Shown here: positions 4,905 through 49,848 of the stretch, piece by piece
Layout of the letters: each line of letters opens with the position of its first letter
Numbering within the stretch: position 1 is the first letter of the stretch
DNA from: a virus
Lineage: Duplodnaviria > Caudoviricetes
Reading direction: 5' to 3' (one strand)
Virus record (IMG/VR): IMGVR_UViG_3300032053_000004
Coordinates: 64,001-128,000 of that record
DNA length: 64,000 bases
The notes under the pieces: model-generated
What the model saw: only the letters and a program-made list of their open reading frames with translations
Database searches by the model: none
What the model was told of the DNA's origin: nothing
Translations under genes and position numbers: made by a program

Positions 4905-5324
4905 ATGAACCCTTCTCAGGTCGTCCAGTCCCTTCGTCGTATAGCTGCTGCCATCCAAGCTTCAAAGAATCCTGACCGAAGGCTTGTGGCTCGGGATTTA
5001 AAGAAGATTATTTCTATTCTTTTGAACAAACCGAAATCCGAAACATTTTATGTTGATTGGGAAGGGAGAGGTTATACATCAGATTTAATGAAATCTGACA
5101 TTCAAATAATGAAAAAAACAATAGGAGAAGGACCAATTTATGCTGGAAGTATTGATGATTTTACAGGTGAGTATTTTAGTTCAACAGGCGGACCTATTGA
5201 AAATTTGATAATTTTAAGAGGTGGACTTAAGAATACTGACAGTAGTCCTTTCATGAGAGACAATGTTCTTTGGAGAAAATTTTCTAATTGGGATGAACTA
5301 ATAAATGAATTTCAATTGTTTTAA
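4905..5324 (+). CDS. unknown protein carrying the shared 43-aa N-terminal leader (copy 1)
   Basis: Start reassigned to ATG 4905 (MNPSQVVQSL..) by alignment with the 21010 and 49390 genes. Confidence 0.8.
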   Translation: MNPSQVVQSLRRIAAAIQASKNPDRRLVARDLKKIISILLNKPKSETFYVDWEGRGYTSDLMKSDIQIMKKTIGEGPIYAGSIDDFTGEYFSSTGGPIENLIILRGGLKNTDSSPFMRDNVLWRKFSNWDELINEFQLF

Positions 5325-5337
5325 GTAATGTTGTTTT

Positions 5338-5577
5338 ATGTCAGATAATGAACGTGATAGATATGCTTATGGATATGACGCCGGGACAATTGTAGATGGC
5401 GTCGTTCATTTGGATTTATCTACAAATAAATTTGTTCTCATAGATGACGATGGAGAGGTTTTTGACCCCAACGCTGTTTTACAAACATTAATGGGGAAAA
5501 AGGTTCGTATAACTATGATTTCTTTCGAATCCATGGAAGCTTTAGAAAAGCTTCTCGCAAATCAGCCTAAGAATTAA
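5338..5577 (+). CDS. hypothetical protein
   Basis: 79-aa ORF; G-TAATGT 6 nt before the ATG; shares TTAA with the stop of the convergent gene. Confidence 0.7.
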   Translation: MSDNERDRYAYGYDAGTIVDGVVHLDLSTNKFVLIDDDGEVFDPNAVLQTLMGKKVRITMISFESMEALEKLLANQPKN

Positions 5578-6695
5578 ACTTGATCATCACTAAGATTTTT
5601 CTCCAAATATGGGATGCAGTCGTTTCTTCTAGATATTAAAACTCTGCATCCCTTGTGTAAATTAAGATCTTTAAACATTGAAAGATTATGGAGAGAAACA
5701 TTTGTAATTGTTACTCCTCCTATATTTATGGGTTCAACAACCGCTACACCGGTTACACGACCTGAAGATCCGACCTGCCATTTCACATCTATAACTCTTG
5801 ATTCTCTCATTGAAGGATCAAATTTCCAGGCCACTTGACCGTTCGGACGAAGATTTAATTCTCCTAACTCTTGGAGATCATTTAAATTATTAACGGAAAC
5901 AACCATTCCATCGATTTCGTACGGAACACTTTCTCGATCTATACCTTTGAATATTTTAACTATATATTCTTTATCTGTACATGCGGCAGCCTCCGGGACT
6001 TCAAACCCTAAGGACTTGAGTTCCTTAAAAGCATATGATAATGTCGATGGTTGGTCTATTTCTTTTACCATCCAATATGCTAGAAAATTTAGATTAACAC
6101 AATCCTTTCCTCCACCTTTTTTGTCCCGGACTTTGCCTGCGGCAGTATTTCTTGGATTAGCGTAAGATTCTGAATATTTTTCTTCAAAAACTTTCTTGAG
6201 TATAACTATTTCGCCGCGAACTATGACATCTATTTCTATTGGAAGTTTTTTCGGTATACTTGGAACCTTTGACATATTTGATAGGACTTCTTCTCCTATC
6301 ATCCCATCCCCTCTAGTAACGGCCGATATTAACACGCCTTTTTGGTATACTAACTCCATGGAGGATCCATCTATTTTATGGGTTATATGGATAGACCCTG
6401 TGTTTAATTTCTCTGCCCATTCTAAAAATTCTGCCTCAGAATTAACTTTATTAAGGGATCCCATTGGTATTTTGTGCGGAACTTTTTCCCAGACAGAAAT
6501 TTCAGTTGGGGCTGCTCCGACCAAAATTAGTTCTTTATGATTAGGGTCGAGAGATTTTAATTCATCAATTAATGCATCATATTCTTGGTCCGACAATATT
6601 GTATTTAAATTATAATAACCTTCTCTGGCTTCTCGGATCTTTAAAGATAACTCTTCTATTCTTTCTGAGTTCATTTGATAATATTTTACATCCAT
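5574..6695 (-). CDS. ligA: NAD-dependent DNA ligase, N-terminal half (domain Ia, adenylation domain, OB fold)
   Basis: YY..LSDQEYD, HKIPMGSLNK, motif I KIDG, TRGDG..GE, VRGE, NPRNTAAG, YEIDGMV, AWKF, WQVGSSGRVT, SLHN; ends RRNDCIP, equivalent to RAGDVIP. Confidence 0.95.
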   Translation of the reverse strand: MDVKYYQMNSERIEELSLKIREAREGYYNLNTILSDQEYDALIDELKSLDPNHKELILVGAAPTEISVWEKVPHKIPMGSLNKVNSEAEFLEWAEKLNTGSIHITHKIDGSSMELVYQKGVLISAVTRGDGMIGEEVLSNMSKVPSIPKKLPIEIDVIVRGEIVILKKVFEEKYSESYANPRNTAAGKVRDKKGGGKDCVNLNFLAYWMVKEIDQPSTLSYAFKELKSLGFEVPEAAACTDKEYIVKIFKGIDRESVPYEIDGMVVSVNNLNDLQELGELNLRPNGQVAWKFDPSMRESRVIDVKWQVGSSGRVTGVAVVEPINIGGVTITNVSLHNLSMFKDLNLHKGCRVLISRRNDCIPYLEKNLSDDQV

Positions 6696-6727
6696 AAGCT
6701 ATTTGTTAATTATAATTTAGAGGAAAT
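6696..6727. promoter_or_regulatory. candidate bidirectional promoter
   Basis: 32-bp divergent gap containing the palindrome AATTATAATT (6708-6717), which gives TATAAT on both strands. Confidence 0.4.
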
Positions 6728-7228
6728 ATGTCTCATCCTACATTCTCAAAAATAGCGGCCGAAATTTCAGTCATGATTCAGTCTCGGACTAGAATCAAAA
6801 CCGCAGCTGAAAGAGACGCTGAATGGCATCGAGTTAATAGTTATATAGCGGACATTTTGAAAGATGTTCATATGACTTATGCTAAACTCGCCCGACTTCA
6901 GAGCGATTTTACTGGGGATGAACTCGTTCAATTAGAAGAATTATCTGAAAGGATTCTTTCTCTCGGTTCTTCAATGTCTAAATTTTCTAAGGCTTTCTAT
7001 GAAGGTCAGTTTAATATGCTTCCTGCGGATACCACGTTTGGTGGCGGTGGCGGTGGCGGTGGTGGCGCTGGGATGCCCGGAGGAGGTTCTCCAATGCCCG
7101 AGGGCGCACCGGGTGGTATAGATATCTTCGAAGAGGAAGAAACCGCCCCGGGATCGGAAGAAGAGGTAGAGGTTGTAGAGGAGGATGAAGGTCAGGGTCA
7201 GGAAGAAGAGGAAGAGGAAGAGGAATGA
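6728..7228 (+). CDS. unknown helical protein with Gly-run and acidic tail; putative internal virion protein
   Basis: SD GAGG; FSKIAAEIS and KTAA motifs; poly-Gly from GGTGGC repeats; Glu-rich C-terminus. Confidence 0.75.
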   Translation: MSHPTFSKIAAEISVMIQSRTRIKTAAERDAEWHRVNSYIADILKDVHMTYAKLARLQSDFTGDELVQLEELSERILSLGSSMSKFSKAFYEGQFNMLPADTTFGGGGGGGGGAGMPGGGSPMPEGAPGGIDIFEEEETAPGSEEEVEVVEEDEGQGQEEEEEEEE

Positions 7229-8025
7229 TCAATATATTTCGAATTGCCAGCAGAATTGCTGGCAAGAGTCTTCTTTTAATGGAAGAAATGGGATACAATC
7301 CATATATTCGTGTAGATAATATAAGTTATTTATTGCCTGAGGAGTGCAGCAGTAGTGAAATTATTGAATCTATATTCAATGCTTGGATAAAGTCTGGATT
7401 TTCAGGTGATTCTCTCATTTCTCAGAAAAAATTATTTGATACCCCAAGTAATTTTCTTCATGAAATTGAACATCTTGTTTTAGATCCTAATTTTGATTTA
7501 AGACTCCAAGCCCATAAATCAAAATTAACTGATTCTCCGTCTCATCATGGGATAGAATCTATGATGGAAGAAGTTATGACTCAACGTCTCTTTCGTTTCA
7601 TTCTTCCTGATGAAGCAGATTGTCATGATGCAATAGATAATAGTATATGGTTTTCACACAATAGTCGTTTAGAAAATGATAAACTGTTGGATATGATTTC
7701 TTCTGCTCCAATGTCTAATTCTACTTTAGAAAATATTAGAGATTCAGCTATATATAAAACAAAACAAAAATATGAGAATGGTGAGATAAATACTAGCCCG
7801 GATCGACCGGGGGTGATAGAAATGAATGTTCAAATCTTAATTGATTTTCTCATGAATGCTTTGAGCAAATTTGATATATGGAAAGAAATTATTTCTGATG
7901 AACAGGAAGAAAAATGGAGAAAATTTGCTCTTAATTTAAGAAATGAATTCAAGAAACTTTCTCGAATTTACGGAATTTCTATGGATTGGGATACTGATCG
8001 AATGATTCAATACGAAGAACAGTAG
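7225..8025 (+). CDS. putative zincin-like metallopeptidase with IASRIA N-terminus
   Basis: FLHEIEH (HExxH) with a downstream MMEEV; N-terminus MINIFRIASRIAG. Confidence 0.5.
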   Translation: MINIFRIASRIAGKSLLLMEEMGYNPYIRVDNISYLLPEECSSSEIIESIFNAWIKSGFSGDSLISQKKLFDTPSNFLHEIEHLVLDPNFDLRLQAHKSKLTDSPSHHGIESMMEEVMTQRLFRFILPDEADCHDAIDNSIWFSHNSRLENDKLLDMISSAPMSNSTLENIRDSAIYKTKQKYENGEINTSPDRPGVIEMNVQILIDFLMNALSKFDIWKEIISDEQEEKWRKFALNLRNEFKKLSRIYGISMDWDTDRMIQYEEQ

Positions 8026-8051
8026 ATATTATCTCAATTGTAAGTTGGTGC

Positions 8052-20217: not shown

Positions 20218-20985
20218 ATGTCCTCACACATTTTGATACAGAACCCTAGTGATATGTCCTCAAGATTTAGTACTCAGGACGGGCTCGGGCAGGAAGAATC
20301 TAACATTGAAGACGCTATGGGGGCTCTTATTGATCGGAGCCTAACCGTAAAAATTGAGGAGATTGATTATAAAAAATTAGAATTTGATGCAGTATCAAAA
20401 TACTTAGATAGAATTCCCGATAGAGAAGCCGATTTGATCCGGTTATATCATCGAGATAAGATGAAGCAAGAACAAATAGCAAGACTTTTTAGTATTACTC
20501 AAGCCGCCGTCTCTTATCGTTTACATCGTGGTATTAAGAGGATTCAATTTTTAAGGACTATTCCGGAACTTGATCAAGAAGAATTTGATGTTGATTTAGG
20601 CCATGTTTTTAATAATCAAGATCGAGAAATTCTTTGGCGGATGTATGAAACGACTTGTCAAAGTGAAATTGCTAAACAGATGGGTTTAACCCAAGGTCGG
20701 GTTCGTCATCGGTTTTTTAGGTCTTTGGCAAAGATAAAAGATCTTATTGCTGGCGAAGTTCGAGAAAAACAAACATATCTCGATGCCTTGAAAAAACATA
20801 ATAAGACGTCTGAGTACATTGAATCTGCTCAAACTGAACTTGATAATTGCATTGTAAATAGTAAATATGCTAGATATTATAGGGTATTCTTTGCCATTAG
20901 TGATAAACATTTCAACCTCTTACATGAGGTGAAATTTCCACAATTTGCTGATCGCGGCGACGCCCAGGTTTTGCCGATCGATTAA
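20218..20985 (+). CDS. protein with two tandem sigma70 region-4-like HTH domains
   Basis: IPDREADLIRLY...KQEQIARLFSITQAAVSYRLHRG and QDREILWRMY...QSEIAKQMGLTQGRVRHRFFR; SD GGAG. Confidence 0.75.
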   Translation: MSSHILIQNPSDMSSRFSTQDGLGQEESNIEDAMGALIDRSLTVKIEEIDYKKLEFDAVSKYLDRIPDREADLIRLYHRDKMKQEQIARLFSITQAAVSYRLHRGIKRIQFLRTIPELDQEEFDVDLGHVFNNQDREILWRMYETTCQSEIAKQMGLTQGRVRHRFFRSLAKIKDLIAGEVREKQTYLDALKKHNKTSEYIESAQTELDNCIVNSKYARYYRVFFAISDKHFNLLHEVKFPQFADRGDAQVLPID

Positions 20986-21009
20986 ATTTTTTTTTGATTT
21001 TAAATTAAT

Positions 21010-21510
21010 ATGAAGCCTTCACAAGTCGCTATGGCTCTACGCCATATCGCTTCAGCTATTCAGGCTTCAAAGAATCCTGATCGAAAGCTTGTGGCCCGGG
21101 ATTTAAAGAAAATAATCTCGGTTTTATTAAACAAACCTAGAGAATTAGTTCACAAAAAATTTGTTGAAGCGTGGAAAAAGATCACGGAACCGTTCCGTGA
21201 TCTGGGTGTTAGCGACGAGCCTCTTTACACTGATCCTAAACAAATACCATCCTCAAAAAGAATAAAATATATTGACTTCGGGGATGGATTGGTATTTGTT
21301 TTAAAAGCCCAACCTGGAGTTTATGATAATAAAGATGAGTATAGTATTATATTAGATTTTATGAATCCTATCACTAAATCAGTTGAGCGAGTTTATACAG
21401 GTCCAAAGTGTACCTTGGGAATAACTAAAGATGAATTTGCTGAAATGGTAGACGCAGCATCTGATATTATGAATAATAATCAAAAAAATAAAGCATTTGA
21501 TATAAATTGA
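21010..21510 (+). CDS. unknown protein carrying the shared 43-aa N-terminal leader (copy 2)
   Basis: MKPSQVAMALRHIASAIQASKNPDRKLVARDLKKIISVLLNKP followed by an unrelated C-terminus. Confidence 0.85.
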   Translation: MKPSQVAMALRHIASAIQASKNPDRKLVARDLKKIISVLLNKPRELVHKKFVEAWKKITEPFRDLGVSDEPLYTDPKQIPSSKRIKYIDFGDGLVFVLKAQPGVYDNKDEYSIILDFMNPITKSVERVYTGPKCTLGITKDEFAEMVDAASDIMNNNQKNKAFDIN

Positions 21511-22757: not shown

Positions 22758-24008
22758 ATGCCTATGGATATCCGTAAAGTAGCTTCCAGAGTTGCGATCG
22801 CTAGTGGTCAAGTTAGGACCGCTGGTGTTATTCAATTCCAAAAAGACCAAGGCCCGGTTCGACGTGACATCCGTGTTGATGGGTATGAATGGACTCCTGA
22901 TAGTCTCCGAAATCTAGCCAAAATCCTGTGGGCGTCTCAAAGAGCCCATAGTTATGCCATGTCGGCGTTTAGAATTTTTTCTAAAATGCCATCCTCTCAG
23001 TTCAGCCCTGATGGTCTCATGGGCGGTCGTGGATATATACAATCTATCAAAGATTTGCGTGCGAATTTAGCAAGCTCTGTTGAAATATTATCTTCTTTTA
23101 CTGATACTGTCCATGACGAGATAAACGCGGATCACTGGCGTACAGCTGGTGATTCAGAAGAAGTTTCAGAAGAAGTTTCGGACGCTGTTGAAGACGCTGC
23201 AGATATTAAAGCAAACCCTGAACAATTTGTAGAAAACGAATATACTGAAGAAATTAAGAATCCGGATCCGGATGATTATAATCCATCTGTTGAGTCGGAT
23301 GAGGAAGAAGAAGACGACGAAGAGGATGAAGATTCCTCCGGATTTTCGCAGACTTCTTCAAAAAGAGAAAAAGACGAAGAATTAAAAAAAAAGTTAAGTC
23401 AATCGGCTTTGCCGACTGATGAGAAAGAACAAAGCGTCGGTCTTTCTGATGTAGAAAAACTGATGCATACAACTTCTAGTTATGATGAAATCATCAAGAA
23501 AAAACATATAATTCGTCGTATTGCCAATTCTATCCAATCAATCCCTGGCGGACTATATCCGAACCCTGTTCTTGATCGTCGTGGCCCGGGAGCAGGTACT
23601 GGAGACTTCGGATCCGGTTATAATCCGCCTTGTGATGCTCCATCCGATGATCCGATGGGCGATGGTATGTCTAGCGGAGTTGAAGAAACTCAGTATTTAT
23701 ATGAAGGTCCTGATGCTAATGGAGATGGCGTTACAGGGTACGATGCTCCAACGACCGGGGATCTGACTAAATTAAAAACTTCTGCGGAAAGAGTTGCTAG
23801 AGTTGAAGGATATTCTTGGCTTCCTGGTTCCAGGAACGAGAAGAGTATGGATTATTATCAAAGAGGTTTATCCGATATTGATGTAGCATGGATGCGCGCC
23901 CATGATTCTCCCAATTTAGGAGAGATTGATCCTGACGCTGTGCAGCGGAGGAAAGATAGGGAAGTTTCCAGTCTATTTTGGGATAAAGGAATAAATCGTG
24001 CCTTCTAG
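22758..24008 (+). CDS. acidic putative internal head protein
   Basis: 416 aa; KVASRVA at the N-terminus, RTAG twice, D/E-rich tracts. Confidence 0.8.
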   Translation: MPMDIRKVASRVAIASGQVRTAGVIQFQKDQGPVRRDIRVDGYEWTPDSLRNLAKILWASQRAHSYAMSAFRIFSKMPSSQFSPDGLMGGRGYIQSIKDLRANLASSVEILSSFTDTVHDEINADHWRTAGDSEEVSEEVSDAVEDAADIKANPEQFVENEYTEEIKNPDPDDYNPSVESDEEEEDDEEDEDSSGFSQTSSKREKDEELKKKLSQSALPTDEKEQSVGLSDVEKLMHTTSSYDEIIKKKHIIRRIANSIQSIPGGLYPNPVLDRRGPGAGTGDFGSGYNPPCDAPSDDPMGDGMSSGVEETQYLYEGPDANGDGVTGYDAPTTGDLTKLKTSAERVARVEGYSWLPGSRNEKSMDYYQRGLSDIDVAWMRAHDSPNLGEIDPDAVQRRKDREVSSLFWDKGINRAF

Positions 24009-35473: not shown

Positions 35474-35517
35474 TTGATGGGGCTTCTATGCTGAAGCCAA
35501 ATAGGACGGAGATTTCA

Positions 35518-36000
35518 ATGGACAAGACTACGGCCAACAAAATTTTAACTGCTCTCGATCGCACTGCTGACGAGATCCAGACCCTCATAAAATCCAAGAA
35601 GATTGATCCGAAGGTAGCCGCTCAGGTTATCAAGAATATCGATTCTTTTGCGGATAAGTTTGAGGTTACGGCTTTTGGTGCGAAGAATCTCGCATCTCGC
35701 AAGGCGAAGGTTATCCAGCAGGATAACGATGAGCCATACATGAAGGCTTTTGAAAACACTGTCGGTCCTCTTCAGACAGAGCCTGATGAGCCGTACATGA
35801 AGAAGATCGGTCCTTCTTTTAATTCGAAGGAAATTAACACTTATGACACGGACCGTTCATCTGTGGTAGAGAACCGGAATGAATATGATGTTCGTGATCT
35901 GAGCGAATGGACCGATAAGACCAAGAAGCAACCTTCTTGGGAGCACGGTTCGTCCGGGAAGAGCACGCGTCAGGGTTCGTCTAAAACTTGGGCCCCCTGA
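35518..36000 (+). CDS. putative head-associated protein
   Basis: Probable start MDKTTANK at 35518 (SD GGAG); internal repeat DEPYMK twice. Confidence 0.75.
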   Translation: MDKTTANKILTALDRTADEIQTLIKSKKIDPKVAAQVIKNIDSFADKFEVTAFGAKNLASRKAKVIQQDNDEPYMKAFENTVGPLQTEPDEPYMKKIGPSFNSKEINTYDTDRSSVVENRNEYDVRDLSEWTDKTKKQPSWEHGSSGKSTRQGSSKTWAP

Positions 36001-36024: not shown

Positions 36025-36732
36025 ATGTTCCGGAGAGCCTTTGTTGACGATCAACTTTTAGCCCGTGAATTTCACACGGGTGATTTTGTTCGTCATTCAG
36101 ATCTCCACGATCTACTTTTGTCTCCTTATGCTGGACGGGTTCTTTATTCAAACCCAGATACAGGCAAAGTTTCTGTCCAATGGCCATGGGGGGCCGAACA
36201 AGACTCTCCGTCCCAGCTTGTTCGGCTCAATATGGAATTATTGGAGTTCTTCCCTCCAATGCTAATTGATCAAAGTTACTCCTCCTGGGAAGGAGCGAGA
36301 AACATTGATGATAAACAGACTTTAAAAGAAGATGACAAGTGGCGTAAGTCTCTAGCTTCTCGAGTGGCTTCTCGTTTTGAGGAAGCTACTGGCCCTATTT
36401 GGCGTTCTGCCTGTAAAGCTTGGCGTCAAGGGAAGAACGAAATACAAGCTTTTACGAGTCTCCATTCTATTTTCGGAGATCAATTCGGGACCGACACGGT
36501 TCGTTTAACTGTCTCAAATTTATACGAACATAGTCGCAGGCTTTCCATATACTATAAGAATAATAAAAGAAAATATAAAGTAACTCAAAAAGAAAAAAAT
36601 TCAGGAGACTTGAAATGCCCTCGATGTAGGACTCCAGGCTCCATTAAGCCAAGAGTTTACCGTCAGGGAAAACGTGTTCTTCAGTGTAGAAACTGCGGAT
36701 TTTCCATACATCCCGGTGATCTTGTAAAATAG
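36025..36732 (+). CDS. protein with SH3/KOW-like N-domain and C-terminal Zn ribbon
   Basis: FHTGDFVR...GRV...GKVSVQWP; LASRVASRF; CPRC...CRNC. Confidence 0.75.
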   Translation: MFRRAFVDDQLLAREFHTGDFVRHSDLHDLLLSPYAGRVLYSNPDTGKVSVQWPWGAEQDSPSQLVRLNMELLEFFPPMLIDQSYSSWEGARNIDDKQTLKEDDKWRKSLASRVASRFEEATGPIWRSACKAWRQGKNEIQAFTSLHSIFGDQFGTDTVRLTVSNLYEHSRRLSIYYKNNKRKYKVTQKEKNSGDLKCPRCRTPGSIKPRVYRQGKRVLQCRNCGFSIHPGDLVK

Positions 36733-37020: not shown

Positions 37021-38007
37021 GTGAATCAGAATTTGCAAAATCTTCTTAAGATTTCGAATGAGATTGACCCTGTTCTCGGGGAATCTCTGAGAAAGAATCT
37101 TATTAATATAACTAAATTTAAGAAGATTTCTGTCGTAAACCCTGACGTTCAAAAATTTGAAGAGCGTCTTCAGACTCTCGTAAATTCTCTAAAATCAGTC
37201 AATAAAGATATCAAGAAGGCTCTTGATAATTTAGACGTTGAAGAAATTGATGAATGGTTTACTAAAGAACTTGATAAAATTAATGAATTAGATGAAGCGG
37301 CTGAAAGAATAGAAGTTTCTAAATTTAGCAGTATTGCTTCCCGTATAGCTGAAATAGAAGATACTGCCGGTATTAAAGACTGGGTTAAGAACAAGTTCAA
37401 GAAAAAGCCAAAAGCCGAACCAAAATCAGAAGAATCTGAATCTATGGCTCCGTCCTATCAAATGGATGAGAGTCGGATGGATGATTTTGTTGAAGGCAAA
37501 GATGATTGGGGCGATGCTTCTGCTTACATAGAAGCGGAATCCCGTGAAAAGAATGAGTTACTAGGTGAAATTGATAATTTCCTAAAAGAGTTTAAAGAGA
37601 CAGAAAAAGGTAAGCCTGTCAGGAAAAATCTTGAAAAACTTTTCGAAAAGTCCAAAGGCCTAATTAAGCGTGGAGAGAAGTTCGTAAAAGGTTTCCGTGA
37701 TCACCTAAAAGAACCCGGGGCTTGGCTCCCTCGTGATGAGGAGAAGTCCGATGCCAAGCCGAAAAATCTCAAGAAAACTGTTGAGCATTATTCTGATATG
37801 CTCCGGGAAAATCTCGGAGACGAAGATAAAACCATCCAGTCTTTAAGAGAATTCTTTAAAGCTGTCGGACCCATGATCAAAGAAGAAAAACAGGCTTCTA
37901 CTACTTCTTCCATCATAAAACAACTTTCTAGAAAAGCTTCTGAAGACCCTTCTTTGAGGAAGAAGCTCATACCCATAATCAATTTAGCCTTGAATTTCAA
38001 TTCTTAA
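37021..38007 (+). CDS. charged putative internal head protein
   Basis: 328 aa; SIASRIAE, KQAS, and C-terminal LSRKASEDPSLRKKLIPII. Confidence 0.8.
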   Translation: MNQNLQNLLKISNEIDPVLGESLRKNLINITKFKKISVVNPDVQKFEERLQTLVNSLKSVNKDIKKALDNLDVEEIDEWFTKELDKINELDEAAERIEVSKFSSIASRIAEIEDTAGIKDWVKNKFKKKPKAEPKSEESESMAPSYQMDESRMDDFVEGKDDWGDASAYIEAESREKNELLGEIDNFLKEFKETEKGKPVRKNLEKLFEKSKGLIKRGEKFVKGFRDHLKEPGAWLPRDEEKSDAKPKNLKKTVEHYSDMLRENLGDEDKTIQSLREFFKAVGPMIKEEKQASTTSSIIKQLSRKASEDPSLRKKLIPIINLALNFNS

Positions 38008-38028: not shown

Positions 38029-39552
38029 ATGGCCTGGAAAAAGACCGCTAAAGCTATAGTTACTCATAATAATATTCAGTTTGATGAGTGGATGGATGAA
38101 CTCCGTCGTAATAACGAGGGGGCCGTACCTGAATCTCAAATAACTCGAGTAGCTAAAACAGTTTTACGTAAGGCTGACCCGAAGCAGTTTCTTTTAAGTC
38201 ATGCGACTATAGTCGCATCAGTTGATACTTTTACTCCGAAAAATGCTAAGACTGGGCGTCAAATGGCCCAGGGAATCCAAATTGATGTCAGATATCCGAA
38301 TTTCCGGATCAATAAAGAATGTCAAGAATTAATCAATAATAATGGAGATGCCTGGGATCGTTCTTTGCTTCTTTCTACGTATCGAACCTTCATAGGTGCT
38401 CAAAATTATTTAGAGCATATACAAGTTCCAGAGCTCTCAAAGGGATTTATTGTTGACGCTATTGCCCGTGATTTAGGTCATACTTGCTATATAGATATAT
38501 TAGTCGCTACTGATAGGAAACATCAAAAATTAGTTAATGATATTTTATCTGGGGATATTTCTGGTCTTTCAATGGGTTGTGTCTCTCTTTTTACTATTTG
38601 TACGAAATGTGGGAACGTAGCTGCTGACGACACTCAACTTTGTCCGTGTATTCAATATGAAGGAAAAGGAACCATTTTCAAAGATGAAAATGGGATGGAC
38701 AGTAAAATTGCTGAACTTGTCGGACATGTGAGTTCGCCAAATTCTAATCAATTTATTGAAGCTTCTTGGGTTCGTAACCCTGCCTTCCGTGGAGCTGTTC
38801 GTCGAAATATATTAAATCCCAACACGGATCAAATTGCGGCTAAACTTGATGTTGCTTCTCAAGTTTATGAAATACGTTCATCTCAACCATTACCTGACGG
38901 TTTGAAGAAAGCGGCTTCAGTTAGATTTGCAGAAGGGCAAGAAGATGATTCCGCCCAAGATGATTCCGCCCAAGATGATTCGGATTCTCAAGATCAATCT
39001 CAAGATCAGGGTGATGAATCATCAGACTCCGGGGCTGAATCTAAGATTGATGAACTTGTAAACAAAACTCAAGAGCTTTTGCTTGAGGGAATTGTTAAAT
39101 CCTTAACTGATAAACTCGGTCCAAAGCCGGAAGATGTCGGATTTGTACAAGCTCCTATTGATTTAACTAACGAAAACGACAATCTAGTCAGATCTTCAAT
39201 AGATTTTAATCGAAAGCTTCAGAAGGCTTTCCCGAAAAATGTTAAGTTGGTTAAATGGGCGACTCGAGCTTATAAAATTGTACATGAAGGTGGAGTAAAA
39301 TCCATTCGTGCAAACAAAATGAATCCACGTGATTTAGTCGCACTTTCTTGGATTGAAGACCGAATAAACAATAAAGTTTATAGTCCAATTTTATATAAAG
39401 CAGTCATGTCTGCCGGGCCGATCATCAAGTATCCAAGCCCAAAATCTTATTTGGCAGCTTGCAGAGTTAGGATTGGAAGAAACGTCTCTAATAAAGAGTC
39501 TAAGTTTCTTATTTGGAAGGGGAAAATTGCGTCTTTTGCAATTTCCAATTGA
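38029..39552 (+). CDS. prohead (capsid maturation) serine protease with C-terminal extension
   Basis: NYLEH, LSMGC and FIEASWVRNPAF resemble HK97/U35-type protease motifs; directly upstream of scaffold and MCP. Confidence 0.8.
   Translation: MAWKKTAKAIVTHNNIQFDEWMDELRRNNEGAVPESQITRVAKTVLRKADPKQFLLSHATIVASVDTFTPKNAKTGRQMAQGIQIDVRYPNFRINKECQELINNNGDAWDRSLLLSTYRTFIGAQNYLEHIQVPELSKGFIVDAIARDLGHTCYIDILVATDRKHQKLVNDILSGDISGLSMGCVSLFTICTKCGNVAADDTQLCPCIQYEGKGTIFKDENGMDSKIAELVGHVSSPNSNQFIEASWVRNPAFRGAVRRNILNPNTDQIAAKLDVASQVYEIRSSQPLPDGLKKAASVRFAEGQEDDSAQDDSAQDDSDSQDQSQDQGDESSDSGAESKIDELVNKTQELLLEGIVKSLTDKLGPKPEDVGFVQAPIDLTNENDNLVRSSIDFNRKLQKAFPKNVKLVKWATRAYKIVHEGGVKSIRANKMNPRDLVALSWIEDRINNKVYSPILYKAVMSAGPIIKYPSPKSYLAACRVRIGRNVSNKESKFLIWKGKIASFAISN
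38942..38981 (+). repeat. 15-nt tandem repeat (QDDSA)
   Basis: AAGATGATTCCGCCC x2 plus a partial third copy. Confidence 0.9.
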
Positions 39553-39672: not shown

Positions 39673-40911
39673 ATGCGCCAGCGTTCAACTTGGATCCGAT
39701 CAGCAAATGCACTACCCACTGCCCCGAAAGGGAAAGGGCGTCGTGCGGATATCTACAATATGAACCAGGAGCATCCACAGCCGTCTCCTGTTGAATACGA
39801 GAACGGAAGTCCGGACTCATGGGCAGAATCTCTTGCTCCGTATTCTCATATTGAAAAAGAATACGAAGGCGGCCATGTTAAGCGTAATGAGCTTAACTTT
39901 GCTGAATTCCGCGATGATACGTGGGATCACAAAGATGCCGATAAGTGGAACGGCAAAGGCAAGTACGATAACCATCGTAGTGCTTCCGAGCGTAAGGCTC
40001 AGGCTTGTGAGAAATTGGCGCGTGGTCTTCTTAAGACTGCCAATCCTAAGCTGATTGAAGATCAGGCTCTTGATTTCATGTGCCTTCCTCCTAACGTTGT
40101 AACGGCGACGATCAAGCGGATTCAGGAGACTTCTCCTGCAGCGCTTGCCCCCGCGAATCGTTACAATCGTGCATTGGCTTGCACTAAGCTTTCAGCTAAG
40201 ATGCTCGGAGACGAAGCTCCGGAGAATCTCGTTGAGAAGCTTGCCACGTTGTTCATGAATATTGATGACCCGACTCTGAAGTCCATGGTTCGGGTTGTTG
40301 CCTCGGTTCGTTTTGCTGAGCAGGATGAACAAGAGGAGCAACAGGAGCAACAGGGCCAGCAGGAGCAGCAGGGCCAGGATGAAGAGCAGCAGCAGGAGCA
40401 ACAGGGCCAGCAGGAGCAACAGGGCCAGCAGGAGCAACAGGGCCAGGATGAAGAGCAAGAGGAACAGCAAGAACAGCAAGCGCAAAATGAAGAATGCGCT
40501 ACTGGTTTGACGTCTGAAGAGATGTCCATGCTGGACCAAATGCTCAACCCGGGAATGGGTCAAGAAGCTCCGGGAATGGGTCAAGAAGCTCCGGGAGCTG
40601 AAGTTTCTCCACCGGCCATGCCAGCGATGGCCAGCGATTTCTCCATCTCCTTTGACGGAGATGATGACGGCTCAGAAGGTCTCCCTCATATATCGTCACT
40701 TGACGTTTTGTTCAATGACGATCCTGAGGTCCAGGCTCAACGTGAAATCGTTGCCGCTTCTCAGGAGCAACGGGCTCGTGAGCAAGGTGGATACTCGATC
40801 AGTCGTACTGCCTCTGCTAAGGGCGCAAAAAAGCTTGGTCAAGTCACTAAGCCCAAGGCCTCGAGCATTGATACGGCGCTCGAGAATCTCTGGGAGCGCC
40901 CAGGCGCGTGA
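39673..40911 (+). CDS. scaffolding protein (putative)
   Basis: Lies between protease and MCP; helical with a Q/E low-complexity tract; SD GGAGG. Confidence 0.7.
   Translation: MRQRSTWIRSANALPTAPKGKGRRADIYNMNQEHPQPSPVEYENGSPDSWAESLAPYSHIEKEYEGGHVKRNELNFAEFRDDTWDHKDADKWNGKGKYDNHRSASERKAQACEKLARGLLKTANPKLIEDQALDFMCLPPNVVTATIKRIQETSPAALAPANRYNRALACTKLSAKMLGDEAPENLVEKLATLFMNIDDPTLKSMVRVVASVRFAEQDEQEEQQEQQGQQEQQGQDEEQQQEQQGQQEQQGQQEQQGQDEEQEEQQEQQAQNEECATGLTSEEMSMLDQMLNPGMGQEAPGMGQEAPGAEVSPPAMPAMASDFSISFDGDDDGSEGLPHISSLDVLFNDDPEVQAQREIVAASQEQRAREQGGYSISRTASAKGAKKLGQVTKPKASSIDTALENLWERPGA
40318..40488 (+). repeat. Gln/Glu-rich tandem coding repeat (EQQGQQ)n
   Basis: Repeated GGAGCAACAGGGCCAGCA-type units. 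Confidence 0.9.
40549..40596 (+). repeat. 21-nt tandem repeat (PGMGQEA)
   Basis: CCGGGAATGGGTCAAGAAGCT x2 plus CCGGGA. Confidence 0.9.
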
Positions 40912-41823: not shown

Positions 41824-42708
41824 ATGTTCGGCGTTCAAGCAGTTGATAACTCCGTTAAGGAGTCAGTCGTTGACAAATTCATTGGTAGCCCGTCAGGACG
41901 TAAGCGTCTTGCGGCTTCCATGGTCCAGCCGCTCCGTGAGCGGAGGGACTACTCGTCCGTTGGCCGTAAGACCTTTTTGGTTGAACAGCTTCCGGATGGC
42001 GCTCTCCCGATTTACGATAAGGACCCCGATGTGGTCGCTTACGTGATCGGTGAGGAAGGCGAGTCGATCACCGCCGTGGCTAAGCCACGCCGTGTGATTT
42101 TCCCGCTTTTCGAGATCGCGGCCCTCCCCAAGGCCCCACTTACGCAGGTTAAGGAGCGTCGCTACGACCTTCTCAAGCGTATGCAGGATCTTGGTAAGGC
42201 TCAGATCCAGGCCGCAGAAGACGATCGAGTTTTCTCGATTCTCGATGCGATCGCGGTTAACGGATTCGACTCGCTTCCGGGCGGGACGAACCCGGATATC
42301 CCGGTTGTGGCTCCGCTCTCGCCGGCCGTCCTCGCGGACGCGTACGCCGAGATCGAGCGTCACGATCTCCGGGTGGCCCGCGTTTACCTGAACGCTACGG
42401 ATTATGCTGATATCCGTAAGTTCGGTCGCGACGTCCTGGACATTGAGTCCCAGGCGTCCCTCTGGAAGACCGGTATGATGGCAACTGGGTGGAACGCCCA
42501 GTTCATCGTGTCGCGTCTCGTTCCCGCAGGTGTCGTGTATTGTTGCTGCGAGCCCGAGAACTTCGGTCGAATCCCGGTCCGTACGGAGCTTACGGTTCTC
42601 TCGGCGGACAATCCCGAAGACCGGACAATCGGATTCTCGATGTTTGAGAACCTTGGGATTGGAGCATTCAATCCCCGCGGTCTCGTTCGTCTGATCATCA
42701 CCCGCTGA
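41824..42708 (+). CDS. major capsid protein (HK97-fold presumed)
   Basis: 294 aa after protease, scaffold and decoration genes; strong SD; strongly biased codons; followed by a terminator; C-terminal GIGAFNPRGLVRL. Confidence 0.85.
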   Translation: MFGVQAVDNSVKESVVDKFIGSPSGRKRLAASMVQPLRERRDYSSVGRKTFLVEQLPDGALPIYDKDPDVVAYVIGEEGESITAVAKPRRVIFPLFEIAALPKAPLTQVKERRYDLLKRMQDLGKAQIQAAEDDRVFSILDAIAVNGFDSLPGGTNPDIPVVAPLSPAVLADAYAEIERHDLRVARVYLNATDYADIRKFGRDVLDIESQASLWKTGMMATGWNAQFIVSRLVPAGVVYCCCEPENFGRIPVRTELTVLSADNPEDRTIGFSMFENLGIGAFNPRGLVRLIITR

Positions 42709-45782: not shown

Positions 45783-45807
45783 CCGGTACTTTACTGTCTT
45801 TCGGTTT

Positions 45808-46152: not shown

Positions 46153-46190
46153 ATACTAATATACAATTTTCGATCTCTCATTTACAAAGA

Positions 46191-46514
46191 CTAAGAGTCA
46201 ACGACTTCTTCGCATAAAGCTTCATTCATCATTTTCTCAATTTCTTCTTTTTCCATTCCCGATTTAATTGCTGCTTTCATTGCTTCATTAAGGGCAAATT
46301 TTGGATTAATAAAATTTCCGAAATTTGTATTTCCAATAGTTATATGTTGCCCTCCAGGCATTCCATTATATGGGATAGTTTGTTGACCCATCGGATCTAT
46401 TATCCAAGTTCCGTTCATATTCGGATATATAGCGGTATCCCCAATAGTAATCGTTGTTTGAGAAATATTTGTTGATGTTTGAGGAATATACAAGTTGTGA
46501 TCACCTAATGACAT
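46191..46514 (-). CDS. hypothetical protein
   Basis: 107 aa; SD GGAGG. Confidence 0.7.
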   Translation of the reverse strand: MSLGDHNLYIPQTSTNISQTTITIGDTAIYPNMNGTWIIDPMGQQTIPYNGMPGGQHITIGNTNFGNFINPKFALNEAMKAAIKSGMEKEEIEKMMNEALCEEVVDS

Positions 46515-46532
46515 GTTGGCCTCCGTAAAACT

Positions 46533-48461
46533 TTACTTTTCTTGAGCAAATCCTCCTAGTGGGGTGACTTGCTCTTCGTCATTTATCTCGTATGGGGATA
46601 TGTCTCTTGATGGAATGAAGTCATCATCTTCAGACCCTTTCCCATTTACTCCAGGTTTTCCATAAACAGGCTGCTCTTTTTTCCCCTTAATTAATTCTTC
46701 TTCGGTTATCCAGCCTCGATTTCCCATAACATCCATATTCATTCTTAAAAATAGCATTCTGTCTTGCGATAACTCAGATCCTTCCACAAATTTAACAGAT
46801 TTCGGGTTCGGGAGAATAGACGCTAAAAACATTGATTGGCTGAGACTTAGTTGATAAGGCTCTTTCTTAAAATAATAATAGGATGCTGGTCCTATTCCGT
46901 ATAAATTCGGACCATATTCGATTATGTTTAGATAGGTTTCTATAATTTGGTCTTTAGATAAAGACTGTTCAAGCCATTTGGCTAAAACAAGCTCTTGTAA
47001 TTTTCTCGCGATGTTTTTATTTCTATCTAGCCAAAGATTTTTGGCTAATTGCATTGTTATAGTGCTTCCTCCTCGTATAAATTTCCCGAACACTAAATTA
47101 TCTCTTAAAGAACCTTCTAAGGCTTGAAATATGATCCCGCCATGCTTTCGAAACCCCGGATCTTCGAATAATCGAACTCCTAATTCTACATATGGAGACA
47201 TTTCGGATATTGGAGTCCAGTCAGATGTCCCTGGACCTACAATAACTTCTTTCGGTTTCCCGTCTGAAGAGTATATCTTATGCTTAAATGTCTTTCTAAA
47301 TCTTTTCGTATCAAGTTCTTCTGGAACTTTTGTTATACTGCAGTCTATTTTTTGTTGAATCCAAGCGTCTGATTTGCTTAATCTTCCAAAATTCTTGTAA
47401 TCATATAATATTTTTATTTTTCCTTTTATTTTTCCATCAGATTCAATCCCTTTAATTTTTTCGTTCATTCCATCGGGAATTGAGTCTAGCAAATTTTGAC
47501 AAGGAGTTTCGGGTAAATCAATTTCGAAAAGAATTAAATATTTATCCTTGCTGAAAGATATCGGTGTTTTAATTTTCATGAATTCTAACATATTATCTGT
47601 GTGTAATATTGTTCCATCTAAACTTATATGCCCTGTTGTTTCTATTTTAAATTTTGGTATATCTATGGTCTCTTTGGATAAAACCCTATGGTTTATCTTG
47701 ATCGGACCAATTTCCGCATTTGTTTTGAATTCTATTTTTTCTCCTTCATCTAATTTTAAAAATATGTTAGAATCTATAGATGTACATTCTAAATCCACAA
47801 GTTTGGGAGGATTTTCTTTTGAACATTCTTTCAATAGTTTAAAAGAGATCCCAGACTCATTCGGATTTATTGATATTTTTGCTGGTCCATAAGAATTTAT
47901 GGAGAAAGATTCAATTTCTGTTTTGAATTTAGATACTTTTTCATAAATTCTAAAAAGTTTTTCTAAATTTCTCGGTTCTTCTGATTTTTCTTTTTTCTTA
48001 GTTTTTATTGATAACTCTTTGGAATTTATAGATTTTATTTGTTTTTGATTCAATTCTATTTTTGTATTTTTTGAATTTATAACGAAAGACTCATTCTCAA
48101 ATAAAATTCTTTCCATATCTATGAATATTTGTTCTCCAATTTTCTTTATATTCCGAACATTAGTTATGAATTTTCCTCTCTTATCAGTATAAATAACCTC
48201 TCCTGCTCCTGTCTCTATATTTTGACTTGTAAAATTAATCTTTAATAGTTTGAATTTAGCGTTATTTTTATTTTTATCAAATACTTGAACATCTGATATT
48301 TTCACTTCATGCAGAGACGGCCAAGCCCACCCCATCTTTACTTCTAAATCAAATTCTTGAGCTTTTGCTTTAATTTTTGTATGAGCAAAAGAATTAAACC
48401 AAATTAAAGCGATTGATATTATTATGAATAGGAATATTGAAAACTTGATCAGTTTTTTCAC
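46533..48461 (-). CDS. membrane-anchored monofunctional peptidoglycan transglycosylase (GT51)
   Basis: N-terminal TM helix; GT51 motifs EDPGFRKHGG, GGSTITMQLAKN, RKLQE, KDQIIETYLN, LASILPNP; no transpeptidase domain; start moved to GTG 48461. Confidence 0.92.
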   Translation of the reverse strand: MKKLIKFSIFLFIIISIALIWFNSFAHTKIKAKAQEFDLEVKMGWAWPSLHEVKISDVQVFDKNKNNAKFKLLKINFTSQNIETGAGEVIYTDKRGKFITNVRNIKKIGEQIFIDMERILFENESFVINSKNTKIELNQKQIKSINSKELSIKTKKKEKSEEPRNLEKLFRIYEKVSKFKTEIESFSINSYGPAKISINPNESGISFKLLKECSKENPPKLVDLECTSIDSNIFLKLDEGEKIEFKTNAEIGPIKINHRVLSKETIDIPKFKIETTGHISLDGTILHTDNMLEFMKIKTPISFSKDKYLILFEIDLPETPCQNLLDSIPDGMNEKIKGIESDGKIKGKIKILYDYKNFGRLSKSDAWIQQKIDCSITKVPEELDTKRFRKTFKHKIYSSDGKPKEVIVGPGTSDWTPISEMSPYVELGVRLFEDPGFRKHGGIIFQALEGSLRDNLVFGKFIRGGSTITMQLAKNLWLDRNKNIARKLQELVLAKWLEQSLSKDQIIETYLNIIEYGPNLYGIGPASYYYFKKEPYQLSLSQSMFLASILPNPKSVKFVEGSELSQDRMLFLRMNMDVMGNRGWITEEELIKGKKEQPVYGKPGVNGKGSEDDDFIPSRDISPYEINDEEQVTPLGGFAQEK

Positions 48462-48474
48462 ATGAGAAAGTACA

Positions 48475-49017
48475 TCACGAAGCTGCAATTTTTGCTGCTA
48501 TGACCCGAATTTTTTCTTGAACTTCGTGGATTAAAGCAATTTTCTTTATAGAACCTGTTCTCCCCATATCGTTTATTATTTCTTTCGCAACTGATCCTAT
48601 CAGATCTGTTGTTATATACTTCTTTACGATTTTTTCAAGATATGGGTCATCTTCTTGTTCTGAAAAAGGTATTTCACTTGGTGGAACTGGTTTTGCTGCA
48701 AGTGCGTAATCGAGATCACCTTGCAGTTTTCTTACCATCAATTTTAAAGTAGAATCTTTTGGTCTAATAAAAATATCTTTAACTATTGAATTACTAATTT
48801 CGTCATCTAGTATTCTTTCCGCATCTTGACGAATTTTAACCGGGTCTTTTTGACTTTTTGCTGGCATACCTTGAGTTATATTTTGAAATATTAAATTGAC
48901 TAATGTTTCATTTAATGAATCTAAAGCGTCGTATATAGCTCCTTCTATTAATTTGGTTCCAAATTCTTTTTGAAGATAGTCTTGTAAATCGTGGCTGAGT
49001 GCAGCAATTCTTCCCAT
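48475..49017 (-). CDS. helical hypothetical protein ending in an IAAKIA motif
   Basis: Probable start ATG 49017; C-terminus RTGSIKKIA...IRVIAAKIAAS. Confidence 0.7.
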   Translation of the reverse strand: MGRIAALSHDLQDYLQKEFGTKLIEGAIYDALDSLNETLVNLIFQNITQGMPAKSQKDPVKIRQDAERILDDEISNSIVKDIFIRPKDSTLKLMVRKLQGDLDYALAAKPVPPSEIPFSEQEDDPYLEKIVKKYITTDLIGSVAKEIINDMGRTGSIKKIALIHEVQEKIRVIAAKIAAS

Positions 49018-49040
49018 GAAAACCACAATTTACAAGAATT

Positions 49041-49328
49041 TTATGCTTCAAGCATTTCTCTGGTCAGAAGAATTTCCTTTAGTGGAAACTCACTCTCCCA
49101 GTCTATACTTATCCTAGATCCATCCCAAATCATGGGGACTGAGATATCATCCGTAAGGAGACGCCCGGAGAACGATCTCAGGTATTCCATTGTCTCTATG
49201 AGATCGTCTGGACACTCTATAGATATTTCGTTTGAAGACGCGTCCGTTAGGAGAATATTATATATCCCATTGGAATGAGGTCCTTTCGGCTGCAGTCTAG
49301 TGATTTCGATTAATTTATAATTTTTCAT
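49041..49328 (-). CDS. hypothetical protein
   Basis: 95 aa; G-TAAAAT 5 nt before the ATG. Confidence 0.7.
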   Translation of the reverse strand: MKNYKLIEITRLQPKGPHSNGIYNILLTDASSNEISIECPDDLIETMEYLRSFSGRLLTDDISVPMIWDGSRISIDWESEFPLKEILLTREMLEA

Positions 49329-49389
49329 AAAATATTTTACTCTTGAATAGATTTGATTTACATGGACTTTTGATAATCTTTTGTATCTG

Positions 49390-49848
49390 ATGACACCCGA
49401 TCAAGTTGCCAAGGCTCTTCTCCAAATTGCTGATGGGATTGAGAAATCGAAGAAGCCTCAAGTTTCTTTGGTGGCTCAAGATATATCTAAAGTTATTTCT
49501 GAGATTAGCGCTTCCCCTATTCAGATAAGGAAAGCCGCTTGGAGGGTAAGTGGGCCCCCCGCTTCTTTCACTGTTCGTTCTTCTAAAAAATCTGCGGAAG
49601 AAACCTGTCGCAGAATAGCTGGCTTGATGATGCGTCTTGCAGAAGACGAGGAACTTGGTCCTTGGGATTTAGAAGAAGGCGAGCGAACTGAAGATAAATG
49701 GGAAGACGCTCGTAAAGAAACTTCAAACGAGGAAAAACTCGAGTCTAAGTTGAAATTTCTTAAGCGCCAAATAGATAAATTTATAAGTGCTATTAAGAGT
49801 GGTGAAGAACCTGAGGGAGAATCTGAAGTTTTTACTTCCGCTAAATAA
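49390..49848 (+). CDS. unknown protein carrying a divergent copy of the 43-aa leader (copy 3)
   Basis: MTPDQVAKALLQIADGIEKSKKPQVSLVAQDISKVISEISASP aligns without gaps to copies 1 and 2; then RKAA and an acidic tail. Confidence 0.8.
   Translation: MTPDQVAKALLQIADGIEKSKKPQVSLVAQDISKVISEISASPIQIRKAAWRVSGPPASFTVRSSKKSAEETCRRIAGLMMRLAEDEELGPWDLEEGERTEDKWEDARKETSNEEKLESKLKFLKRQIDKFISAIKSGEEPEGESEVFTSAK

What the first reader, a model, noticed from the sequence alone, without database searches (positions are those of the whole stretch)
4905..49518. A 43-aa N-terminal leader fused to three unrelated C-terminal domains: candidate capsid-cargo addressing cassette
Seen: genes at 4905, 21010 and 49390 begin MNPSQVVQSLRRIAAAIQASKNPDRRLVARDLKKIISILLNKP, MKPSQVAMALRHIASAIQASKNPDRKLVARDLKKIISVLLNKP and MTPDQVAKALLQIADGIEKSKKPQVSLVAQDISKVISEISASP. 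They align without gaps and then diverge completely. Copies 1 and 2 match at 44 of 47 nt (4959-5005 vs 21064-21110), both follow a T-run plus TTAAT-ATG, and both sit at module boundaries (after nrdJ; after the sigma4 gene). A weaker echo is LDRTADEIQ..SK in the 35518 gene. Established: T4 internal proteins use an N-terminal capsid-targeting sequence that is removed by the prohead protease. Inference: this is a shufflable promoter+leader module that loads variable cargo into the head for injection, i.e. a modular effector-delivery system.
Basis: partly seen in the sequence, partly recalled or inferred. Interest (0 to 1): 0.85.

Follow-up and report, generated by a model that had tools for sequence, protein, structure and literature searches.

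The report
Shared 40-residue adaptor on phage proteins
A huge sediment phage puts the same 40-residue, positively charged helical hairpin on many small, acidic, otherwise unrelated proteins; the hairpin is an undescribed protein module that probably docks them to one common partner, perhaps the assembling phage head, but that partner has not been shown.

Summary
The three window genes share a gap-free ~40-aa N-terminal module. The 202-kb phage record holds 11 copies, and 740 protein clusters in public metagenomes carry it. Other first readers of this scan noted the same module in neighbouring windows of this genome.

- **The module:** a basic helical hairpin (helix 3-19, SKNPD turn, helix 25-40). 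It is under strong purifying selection and matches no Pfam, PHROG or PDB entry.
- **The partners:** short (median 93 aa), acidic (median pI 4.4) and nearly all unrelated to each other.
- **The conserved unit:** it runs from about -30 nt to codon 39 and ends sharply.

The module is not a short, strictly N-terminal, cleaved signal. It also occurs at C-termini, internally, in tandem and alone, and no cleavage motif marks the junction.

Some circumstantial links to head assembly exist:
- In one relative, a double-module gene sits in the scaffold-like gene's slot beside the prohead protease.
- One payload family carries either the module or a short "IASRIA" N-terminal tag.
- That tag motif is also found in four consecutive head-cluster genes.

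My best reading is a docking adaptor that recruits variable small proteins to the prohead (confidence 0.4). Docking to a partner outside the virion is nearly as likely.

The parts
4875..4904 (+). Conserved upstream element of copy C (T-run, then TTAGTTAAT before the ATG)
   Evidence: The -30..-1 region is 63% identical among 7 copies against a 28% background. No sigma-70-like site lies here.
4905..5324 (+). Module gene C (P0001, 139 aa): module in codons 1-40 (4905-5024), then an acidic payload (pI 4.7)
   Evidence: Payload homologues carry either the module (P0160) or a short KIATYIA N-terminal tag (P0159).
20980..21009 (+). Conserved upstream element of copy D (stop codon of the sigma-like gene, T9, GATTTTAAATTAAT)
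   Evidence: No sigma-70-like site and no terminator.
21010..21510 (+). Module gene D (P0002, 166 aa): module at 21010-21129, then an orphan payload
   Evidence: The payload has no homologue outside its own cluster.
49390..49848 (+). Module gene E (P0003, 152 aa): the most divergent module (47% identity to D) and a charged helical payload. It is conserved as an ortholog in relatives.
   Evidence: L021, L032 and L034 carry the same payload type.
35488..36000 (+). It is not a module copy.
   Evidence: Module HMM E = 14. Conserved at 49-60% identity in relatives.
37021..38007 (+). Scaffold-like 328-aa protein (GTG start) immediately upstream of the prohead protease. Its N-terminal hairpin faintly resembles the module, and it has an internal IASRIAE motif at 37333-37353.
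   Evidence: The hhalign P of 0.005-0.02 is barely better than reversed controls (0.03-0.04).
38029..39552 (+). Prohead protease (507 aa) with the conserved motif AASVRFAE at 38911-38934, before an acidic linker
   Evidence: PHROG head maturation protease. Motif.
39673..40911 (+). Q/E-rich 412-aa protein with the motif VASVRFAE at 40297-40320
36025..36732 (+). 235-aa zinc-ribbon protein of the head cluster with the motif LASRVAS at 36352-36372
41824..42708 (+). 294-aa protein, the likely major capsid protein. It is the most conserved gene of the cluster.
   Evidence: 90-93% identity in G001-G003. No Pfam or PHROG match, so the assignment rests on position and conservation only.
22758..24008 (+). 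416-aa protein with the short N-terminal tag MPMDIRKVASRVA (motif at 22779-22796)
7225..8025 (+). 266-aa protein with the short N-terminal tag MINIFRIASRIA (motif at 7243-7260)

Best explanation
The 'leader' is a small mobile protein domain: a basic two-helix hairpin of about 40 residues. It acts as a docking adaptor. It tethers a large and fast-changing set of small acidic proteins to one conserved partner. I take that partner to be part of the assembling prohead, either the scaffolding core or the inner shell surface, so that the payloads are enclosed in the capsid and can enter the cell with the DNA.

**Shown:** the domain, its fold prediction, its selection regime, its mobility, and the diversity and acidity of its partners.

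**Inferred:** that it binds a common partner (from strict conservation of surface residues R11/R12, K21, D31, K33/K34 across unrelated fusions), and that this partner belongs to the head. Cleavage is not required and is not indicated. The closest working analogy is a scaffold-type coat-binding helix-loop-helix or an encapsulation peptide, rather than the cleaved T4 signal.
For: **Family and selection**
- 11 copies in the record and 740 clusters at E <= 1e-3 among 1.8 billion representatives.
- Mean column identity of 61% over 90 diverse copies, while 141 payloads fall into 110 BLAST clusters.
- Synonymous sites are near saturation against pN 0.12.
- The AF2 model is a hairpin with pLDDT 87.
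- Module pI is 10-12 in 10 of the 11 copies; payload median pI is 4.4.

**Links to the head**
- In G003, a module-LRV repeat-module gene occupies the slot between the zinc-ribbon gene and the prohead protease. In G000, G001 and G002 that slot holds the scaffold-like gene, and G003 has no detectable scaffold-like homologue.
- The payload family of window gene 4905 occurs with the module (P0001, P0160) or with a short N-terminal KIA[ST]xIA tag (P0159).
- That short motif, [ILVA]A[ST].?[RK][IVF]A, occurs 11 times against 0.34 expected. Five are at the extreme N-termini of unrelated proteins. Four are in four consecutive head-cluster genes: zinc-ribbon protein, scaffold-like protein, protease and Q/E-rich protein. 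It is conserved in orthologues of the protease and the Q/E-rich protein.

**Precedent**
- T-even internal proteins are a diverse set of defence-countering proteins that share only a capsid-targeting sequence (PMC3012670, read).
Against: - There are no virion data; the phage is known only from sediment metagenomes.
- Module genes are scattered. The window copies lie after nrdJ, after a sigma-like gene and at a strand switch, mostly outside the head cluster.
- Another double-module LRV gene (P0005) is not in a head cluster.
- The upstream element is private to module genes and is not shared with head genes.
- Similarity of the module to the scaffold-like N-terminus is marginal.
- A PSSM of the short motif does not pick out module helix 1 (rank 33).
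- The strict short motif is almost absent from relatives.
- Only one payload family links the two tags.
- There is no conserved cleavage site.
Confidence: 0.4

Rival explanations
1. The hairpin docks its payloads to a conserved partner that has nothing to do with the virion. The partner could be a host machine (polymerase, ribosome, nucleoid, protease) or a phage-made intracellular hub. The family would then be a set of interchangeable regulators or anti-defence proteins working inside the infected cell.
For: - The same conservation and diversity pattern applies.
- The genes are dispersed among replication and nucleotide-metabolism genes.
- They have a private upstream element that suggests their own expression class.
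- Proteins with two modules and little else look like bivalent linkers.
Against: - No candidate partner was identified.
- This reading does not explain the double-module gene in the scaffold slot of G003.
- It does not explain the sharing of a payload with a tag whose motif marks head-cluster proteins.
Confidence: 0.3
2. The hairpin is mainly a self-association (dimerisation or bundle-forming) domain that makes small acidic proteins multivalent. There is no separate partner.
For: - The heptad-like hydrophobic pattern of helix 1 gives weak matches to designed coiled-coil barrels (E 0.25-1).
- Tandem-module proteins exist. Their AF2 model is four helices with pTM 0.56 and pLDDT 75.
- Fold hits are generic hairpins, including designed homo-oligomers.
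Against: - None of these matches is significant.
- Strict conservation of charged surface positions across hundreds of lineages is more than a dimer interface usually needs.
- Self-association was not tested directly.
Confidence: 0.13
3. The basic hairpin binds nucleic acid or anionic membrane, and so places the acidic payloads on DNA, RNA or the membrane.
For: Module pI is 10-12 in 10 of the 11 copies, with conserved Lys/Arg.
Against: - No match to any DNA-binding family in Pfam, in PDB sequences or by fold.
- A two-helix hairpin with an SKNPD turn is neither a helix-turn-helix nor a helix-hairpin-helix motif.
- The invariant Asp31 and the buried hydrophobic face point to a protein interface.
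Confidence: 0.07
4. These are ordinary paralogues whose C-terminal parts are homologous but have diverged beyond recognition.
For: Payloads have similar size and charge. Remote fold similarity was not tested.
Against: - Nucleotide identity drops from 76-80% to the 28% background within a few codons.
- There are 110 payload clusters among 141 proteins.
- The module occurs at N-termini, at C-termini, internally and in tandem, and on LRV-repeat proteins.
- One payload occurs with a different N-terminus.
Confidence: 0.04

Closest known systems
T4 capsid-targeting sequence (CTS) of the internal proteins IPI-III and Alt
   Same: A conserved terminal element is shared by otherwise diverse small proteins, and the payload genes are hypervariable. 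In T-even phages only the CTS is conserved among internal proteins, which counter host defences (PMC3012670).
   Different: From my own knowledge, the CTS is about 10 residues, strictly N-terminal and removed by gp21 after an L/I-x-E site. Here the element is a folded 40-aa hairpin, it is found at either end or inside proteins, and no conserved cleavage site follows it. The short KIASRIA N-terminal tags of the same genome look more like a CTS than the module does.
C-terminal helix-loop-helix coat-binding domain of the phage P22 scaffolding protein
   Same: A basic helix-loop-helix that works as a docking unit. It can carry foreign cargo into procapsids without being cleaved (the P22 facts are from my own knowledge).
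   Different: There is no sequence match in the PDB profile search. The module is mostly N-terminal on small non-scaffold proteins. The C-terminal hairpin of this phage's own scaffold-like protein shows no similarity to the module (P 0.5).
Encapsulation peptides of bacterial microcompartments and cargo-loading peptides of encapsulins
   Same: Position-independent (N- or C-terminal) address elements joined by a variable linker to unrelated cargo (from my own knowledge).
   Different: Those are single short helices or extended peptides of 10-20 residues that bind shell proteins of non-viral compartments. No sequence relation was found.
Polymorphic toxin / effector architecture (conserved N-terminal trafficking domain with a variable C-terminal effector)
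   Same: A sharp boundary between a conserved delivery or docking part and an exchangeable payload, with many payload families per module.
   Different: The payloads here are about 90-aa acidic orphans with no toxin domain. No immunity genes were identified.
RIIa / Dpy-30 docking-dimerisation domains and J-domain helical hairpins
   Same: About 40-aa helical hairpins with a Pro-Asp-containing turn that serve as protein docking units (a resemblance recalled from memory).
   Different: Pfam finds no RIIa, Dpy-30 or DnaJ match, even at E <= 1. The turn is SKNPD, not HPD, and the spacing differs.

Membership tests
T4-type capsid-targeting sequence | Short (about 10 aa) peptide at the extreme N-terminus only | tested here: not met
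   The module is a 40-aa folded hairpin. Of 166 copies, 12 are C-terminal and 15 internal.
T4-type capsid-targeting sequence | Followed by a prohead-protease site (hydrophobic-x-Glu) at which it is removed | tested here: not met
   [ILVM]xE near the junction in 25 of 138 copies. No column beyond position 40 is conserved.
T4-type capsid-targeting sequence | Carrier proteins are found inside proheads and virions | not testable with these tools
   The phage is uncultured and from sediment. No module was found in cultured relatives or in INPHARED records.
Scaffolding-protein coat-binding helix-loop-helix (P22 type) | Basic helix-loop-helix of 30-40 residues | tested here: met
   AF2 gives helices 3-19 and 25-40. 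pI is 10-12 in 10 of the 11 copies.
Scaffolding-protein coat-binding helix-loop-helix (P22 type) | Sequence or profile homology to a scaffolding protein | tested here: inconclusive
   No PDB sequence hit. hhalign to the N-terminus of the local scaffold-like family gives P 0.005-0.02 against reversed controls at 0.03-0.04. Its C-terminal hairpin gives P 0.5.
Scaffolding-protein coat-binding helix-loop-helix (P22 type) | Binds the inner face of the major capsid protein | not tested
   The single complex job went to the scaffold-like protein and gave no verdict. The shell protein was not tried.
   Pfam and PHROGs: no significant match, and none on the module. PDB profile: best E 0.25, to designed coiled coils. 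Foldseek PDB: best E 3.6. Atlas: nothing.
Mobile domain (as opposed to a leader peptide) | Occurs in several positions and architectures with unrelated partners | tested here: met

The most novel reading that the evidence does not exclude
Huge phages of this clade run a tag-based loading system. A 40-aa hairpin, with a shorter IASRIA-type helix as an alternative tag, addresses hundreds of families of small acidic orphan proteins to the prohead. Each virion would then deliver a strain-specific mix of pre-made effectors with its DNA. This would be a modular, position-independent and uncleaved counterpart of the T4 internal-protein system, on the scale of polymorphic toxin repertoires.
Probability: 0.3. 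Interest if true: 0.85.

Novelty: new variant of a known kind. Interest (0 to 1): 0.62.

Why it matters
If the hairpin is an address tag, it gives a one-step way to list candidate packaged or hub-bound effectors in uncultured huge phages. It would also be a compact, portable 40-residue handle for loading foreign proteins. The payloads are hundreds of small acidic orphan families under rapid turnover. That is the profile expected of anti-defence or host-takeover proteins, so the module flags a large unexplored pool of them. Even without the capsid link, this is an abundant, strongly conserved and so far undescribed protein domain with an unusually sharp fusion boundary.

Tried and rejected
- **Complex prediction:** module against the scaffold-like 328-aa protein gave no verdict (score 0.02, mark 0.32). 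It counts neither for nor against binding.
- **RNA evidence:** no RNA holder is listed among the sequencing runs, so nothing can be said about expression timing.
- **Fold and feature searches:** Foldseek against the PDB found only generic hairpins (E >= 3.6). The Atlas feature search found nothing.
- **PDB profile search:** only non-significant matches to designed coiled coils.
rejected, E = 14.
- **Module helix 1 as the same motif as the short IASRIA tag:** not supported by a PSSM scan; the module ranks 33rd at 7 bits.
- **Short tag as a clade-wide feature:** the strict pattern has one match in five related records.
- **Cleavage after Glu in the head-cluster motif:** unlikely, because orthologues have Gln there.
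- **T-run element as a sigma-70 promoter or terminator:** no such site.
- **Cultured relatives:** INPHARED has no close DNA match. The nearest TerL relatives (LR745208.1 at 45% identity, Tunturiibacter phage Tunturi_5 at 27%) lack the module.
- **Consistent head-cluster context for double-module LRV proteins:** P0005 lies near a Mom-like gene instead.
- **Pfam on payloads of 150 relatives:** only LRV/HEAT repeats in 2, plus one weak Mu-like_Pro hit that I could not trace to a member.
- **RIIa/Dpy-30 and J-domain ideas:** recalled from memory and not supported by Pfam.
Full report
**1. Observation**

The three ORFs exist as described: 4905-5324, 21010-21510 and 49390-49848, all on the + strand. 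Their first ~40 residues align without gaps. After that, similarity is gone.
- The quoted 44/47-nt identity is exact.
- Both near-identical copies follow a T-run and TTAAT-ATG.
- The 'weaker echo' in the 35488 gene is not supported: module HMM E = 14.

**2. Extent in this genome**

The window is bases 64001-128000 of a 202,143-bp IMG/VR virus record. CheckV estimates it at 47% complete, which implies a phage of roughly 400 kb. The record comes from sediment metagenomes.

The record holds 11 copies of the module.
- Ten head proteins of 111-166 aa. Four of these form an array at 146.8-150.4 kb.
- One closes a 331-aa protein, after a long acidic Glu/Ser/Pro-rich (ESEPE-type) linker.

Other first readers of this scan noted the same module in neighbouring windows of this genome. 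I confirmed those copies.

**3. Extent elsewhere**

- A profile of the 11 copies finds 740 clusters (50%-identity representatives) at E <= 1e-3, and 160 at E <= 1e-10, among 1.8 billion proteins.
- Related IMG/VR records carry 3-7 copies each. They range from small fragments to two complete 393- and 436-kb genomes with terminal repeats.
- The module is absent from the two nearest phage records found through the terminase: LR745208.1 (45% identity) and Tunturiibacter phage Tunturi_5 (27%). It is therefore confined to a subclade with no cultured member.

**4. What the module is**

- AlphaFold2 with a 90-sequence alignment gives a two-helix hairpin: helix 3-19, turn S-K-N-P-D, helix 25-40, mean pLDDT 87.
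- S20 and P23 are invariant. P3, L10, I13, A14, I17, L27, V28 and D31 are nearly invariant.
- The module is basic, with pI 10-12 in 10 of the 11 copies.
- Among the seven closest paralogues, synonymous sites are close to saturation (mean pS 0.53) while pN is 0.12. The copies are therefore old and the peptide is under purifying selection.
- It matches no Pfam or PHROG family, no PDB sequence (best E 0.25, to designed coiled coils) and no solved fold beyond generic hairpins.

It is a domain, not a leader peptide in the strict sense. In the 150 best relatives there are 166 copies: 139 N-terminal, 12 C-terminal and 15 internal. Sixteen proteins carry two copies. Some are just two modules joined by a linker, and some have a module at each end of LRV/HEAT-like repeats. 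Some of the 'internal' copies begin with Met and may be miscalled starts, but others are genuine.

**5. The partners**

- Payloads are short (median 93 aa) and acidic: median pI 4.4, with 89% below 6.
- They are almost all unrelated. 141 payloads fall into 110 single-linkage BLAST clusters, and within this genome the best pairwise E is 0.13.
- The payload of the 21010 gene has no homologue outside its own cluster in 5.8 billion proteins.
- Payloads carry no Pfam domain apart from LRV repeats in two proteins.

**6. The boundaries of the conserved unit**

- Mean nucleotide identity among seven copies is 28% at -60..-31, 63% at -30..-1, 76-80% over the module, and 28-29% from codon 41 onward.
- The upstream element is a T-run followed by GATTTTAA(A/T)TTAAT. 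It is almost private to module genes and recurs in the closest relatives, but not in distant ones.
- It is not a sigma-70-type promoter, and no terminator precedes it. It could be a phage-specific promoter or a U-rich translation enhancer; this is open.
- In one relative, the locus syntenic with the 161765 copy keeps the module but ends after 41 codons (L014).
- In a more distant phage, the module and its upstream ~20 nt are the only recognisable similarity within +/-3 kb (L011 and L012).

**7. Test of the capsid-targeting reading**

Against a T4-type signal:
- The size, the fold and the positional freedom of the module.
- No conserved cleavage motif at the junction: [ILVM]xE in 25 of 138, and no conserved column after position 40.
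- Scattered gene locations.

Circumstantial links to head assembly:

(a) **The head cluster and the scaffold slot.** The window holds a head cluster:

| Window start | Gene |
|---|---|
| 28419 | Large terminase |
| 30985 | Portal |
| 32837 | 878-aa protein |
| 35488 | P0004 |
| 36025 | Zinc-ribbon protein |
| 37021 | Scaffold-like 328-aa protein (GTG start) |
| 38029 | Prohead protease |
| 39673 | Q/E-rich 412-aa protein |
| 41130 | 222-aa protein |
| 41824 | 294-aa protein, 90-93% identical in relatives; probably the shell protein |

In G003 the slot of the scaffold-like gene, next to the protease, is taken by a module-LRV-module gene and a 155-aa gene. No scaffold-like homologue is detectable in that record.

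(b) **A payload shared between two tags.** The payload of the 4905 gene has homologues that carry the module (P0160). One homologue instead carries a short N-terminal tag, MDLFKIATYIAAG (P0159).

(c) **The short tag motif.** That tag belongs to a motif, [ILVA]A[ST].?[RK][IVF]A, found 11 times in this record against 0.34 expected (maximum 3 in 200 shuffles).
- Five copies are within the first 15 residues of unrelated proteins, including two kinase-like paralogues and the window genes at 7225 and 22758. Codon usage differs among the N-terminal copies, so the conservation is at peptide level.
- Four lie in the four consecutive head-cluster genes from the zinc-ribbon protein to the Q/E-rich protein.
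- The motif is conserved in orthologues of the protease and the Q/E-rich protein, just before their acidic low-complexity parts.

**8. Limits of that evidence**

- Similarity of the module to the N-terminal hairpin of the scaffold-like family is marginal: hhalign P 0.005-0.02 against 0.03-0.04 for reversed controls.
- A PSSM of the short motif does not single out module helix 1.
- The strict short motif is nearly absent from relatives.
- Another double-module LRV gene is not in a head cluster.
- Only one payload family links the two tags.

**9. Reading**

- The conservation pattern argues for a docking adaptor with one conserved partner: charged surface residues are kept across hundreds of unrelated fusions.
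- I favour the assembling prohead as that partner (0.4). In that reading the module works like a scaffold-type coat-binding hairpin or an encapsulation peptide, without cleavage.
- An intracellular partner unrelated to the virion is almost as likely (0.3).
- Pure self-association (0.13), nucleic-acid or membrane binding (0.07) and diverged paralogy (0.04) follow.

**10. Novelty**

The logic of a conserved address with variable cargo is known from T-even internal proteins (PMC3012670) and from polymorphic toxins. The element itself is not in Pfam, PHROGs or the PDB. It differs from the known phage signal in size, fold, position and lack of cleavage. I rate it a new variant of a known kind, with interest 0.62.

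Noticed in passing
window 7243-7260, 22779-22796, 36352-36372, 37333-37353, 38911-38934, 40297-40320, 52963-52980; also genome 33907, 34627, 35302 and 164559: A short peptide motif, [ILVA]A[ST].?[RK][IVF]A ('KIASRIA'), occurs 11 times against 0.34 expected. Five copies are at the extreme N-termini of unrelated proteins, and four are in four consecutive head-cluster genes. It may be a second address tag or a binding site, and it looks closer to a T4-type signal than the 40-aa module does.
   Followed up: partly
window 37021-38007: The gene upstream of the prohead protease is 328 aa with a GTG start, not the 187-aa ATG ORF. Relatives confirm the longer form (33-39% identity). It is helical and charged, which makes it a likely scaffolding protein.
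   Followed up: yes
L016 1855-3135 (G003): In a related phage, the scaffold-like gene's position is occupied by a 155-aa gene and a 251-aa protein with the module at both ends of LRV/HEAT-like repeats. A reverse-strand 220-aa gene follows.
   Followed up: partly
genome 34627-35958 (L064 4627-5955): Two adjacent paralogues (223 and 218 aa) carry the N-terminal KIASR[VI]ARVE tag and weakly match the APH phosphotransferase family (E about 1e-3). They are possible tagged kinases.
   Followed up: no
genome 147945-148454 (L062 4945-5451): A 169-aa protein inside the four-copy module array has an HCxxGxxRS signature, typical of Cys-based protein phosphatases. I identified it by eye only.
   Followed up: no
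whole record: Only 69 of 256 genes have even a loose Shine-Dalgarno-like word upstream, so the host probably relies little on SD pairing. The host is unknown. The nearest cultured phage by terminase infects an acidobacterium.
   Followed up: no
genome 36906-41219 (upstream of the window): Small proteins next to two module genes end in a common C-terminal peptide (..EVLES, ..EILEA, ..DVLDC, ..SIVEG), as other first readers noted. None of the 11 module proteins has it, but a relative's module protein ends in ..SVLEA.
   Followed up: no
window 51619-52782: A 387-aa protein combines HNH or homing-endonuclease-like and Mom-like DNA-modification PHROG matches.
   Followed up: no
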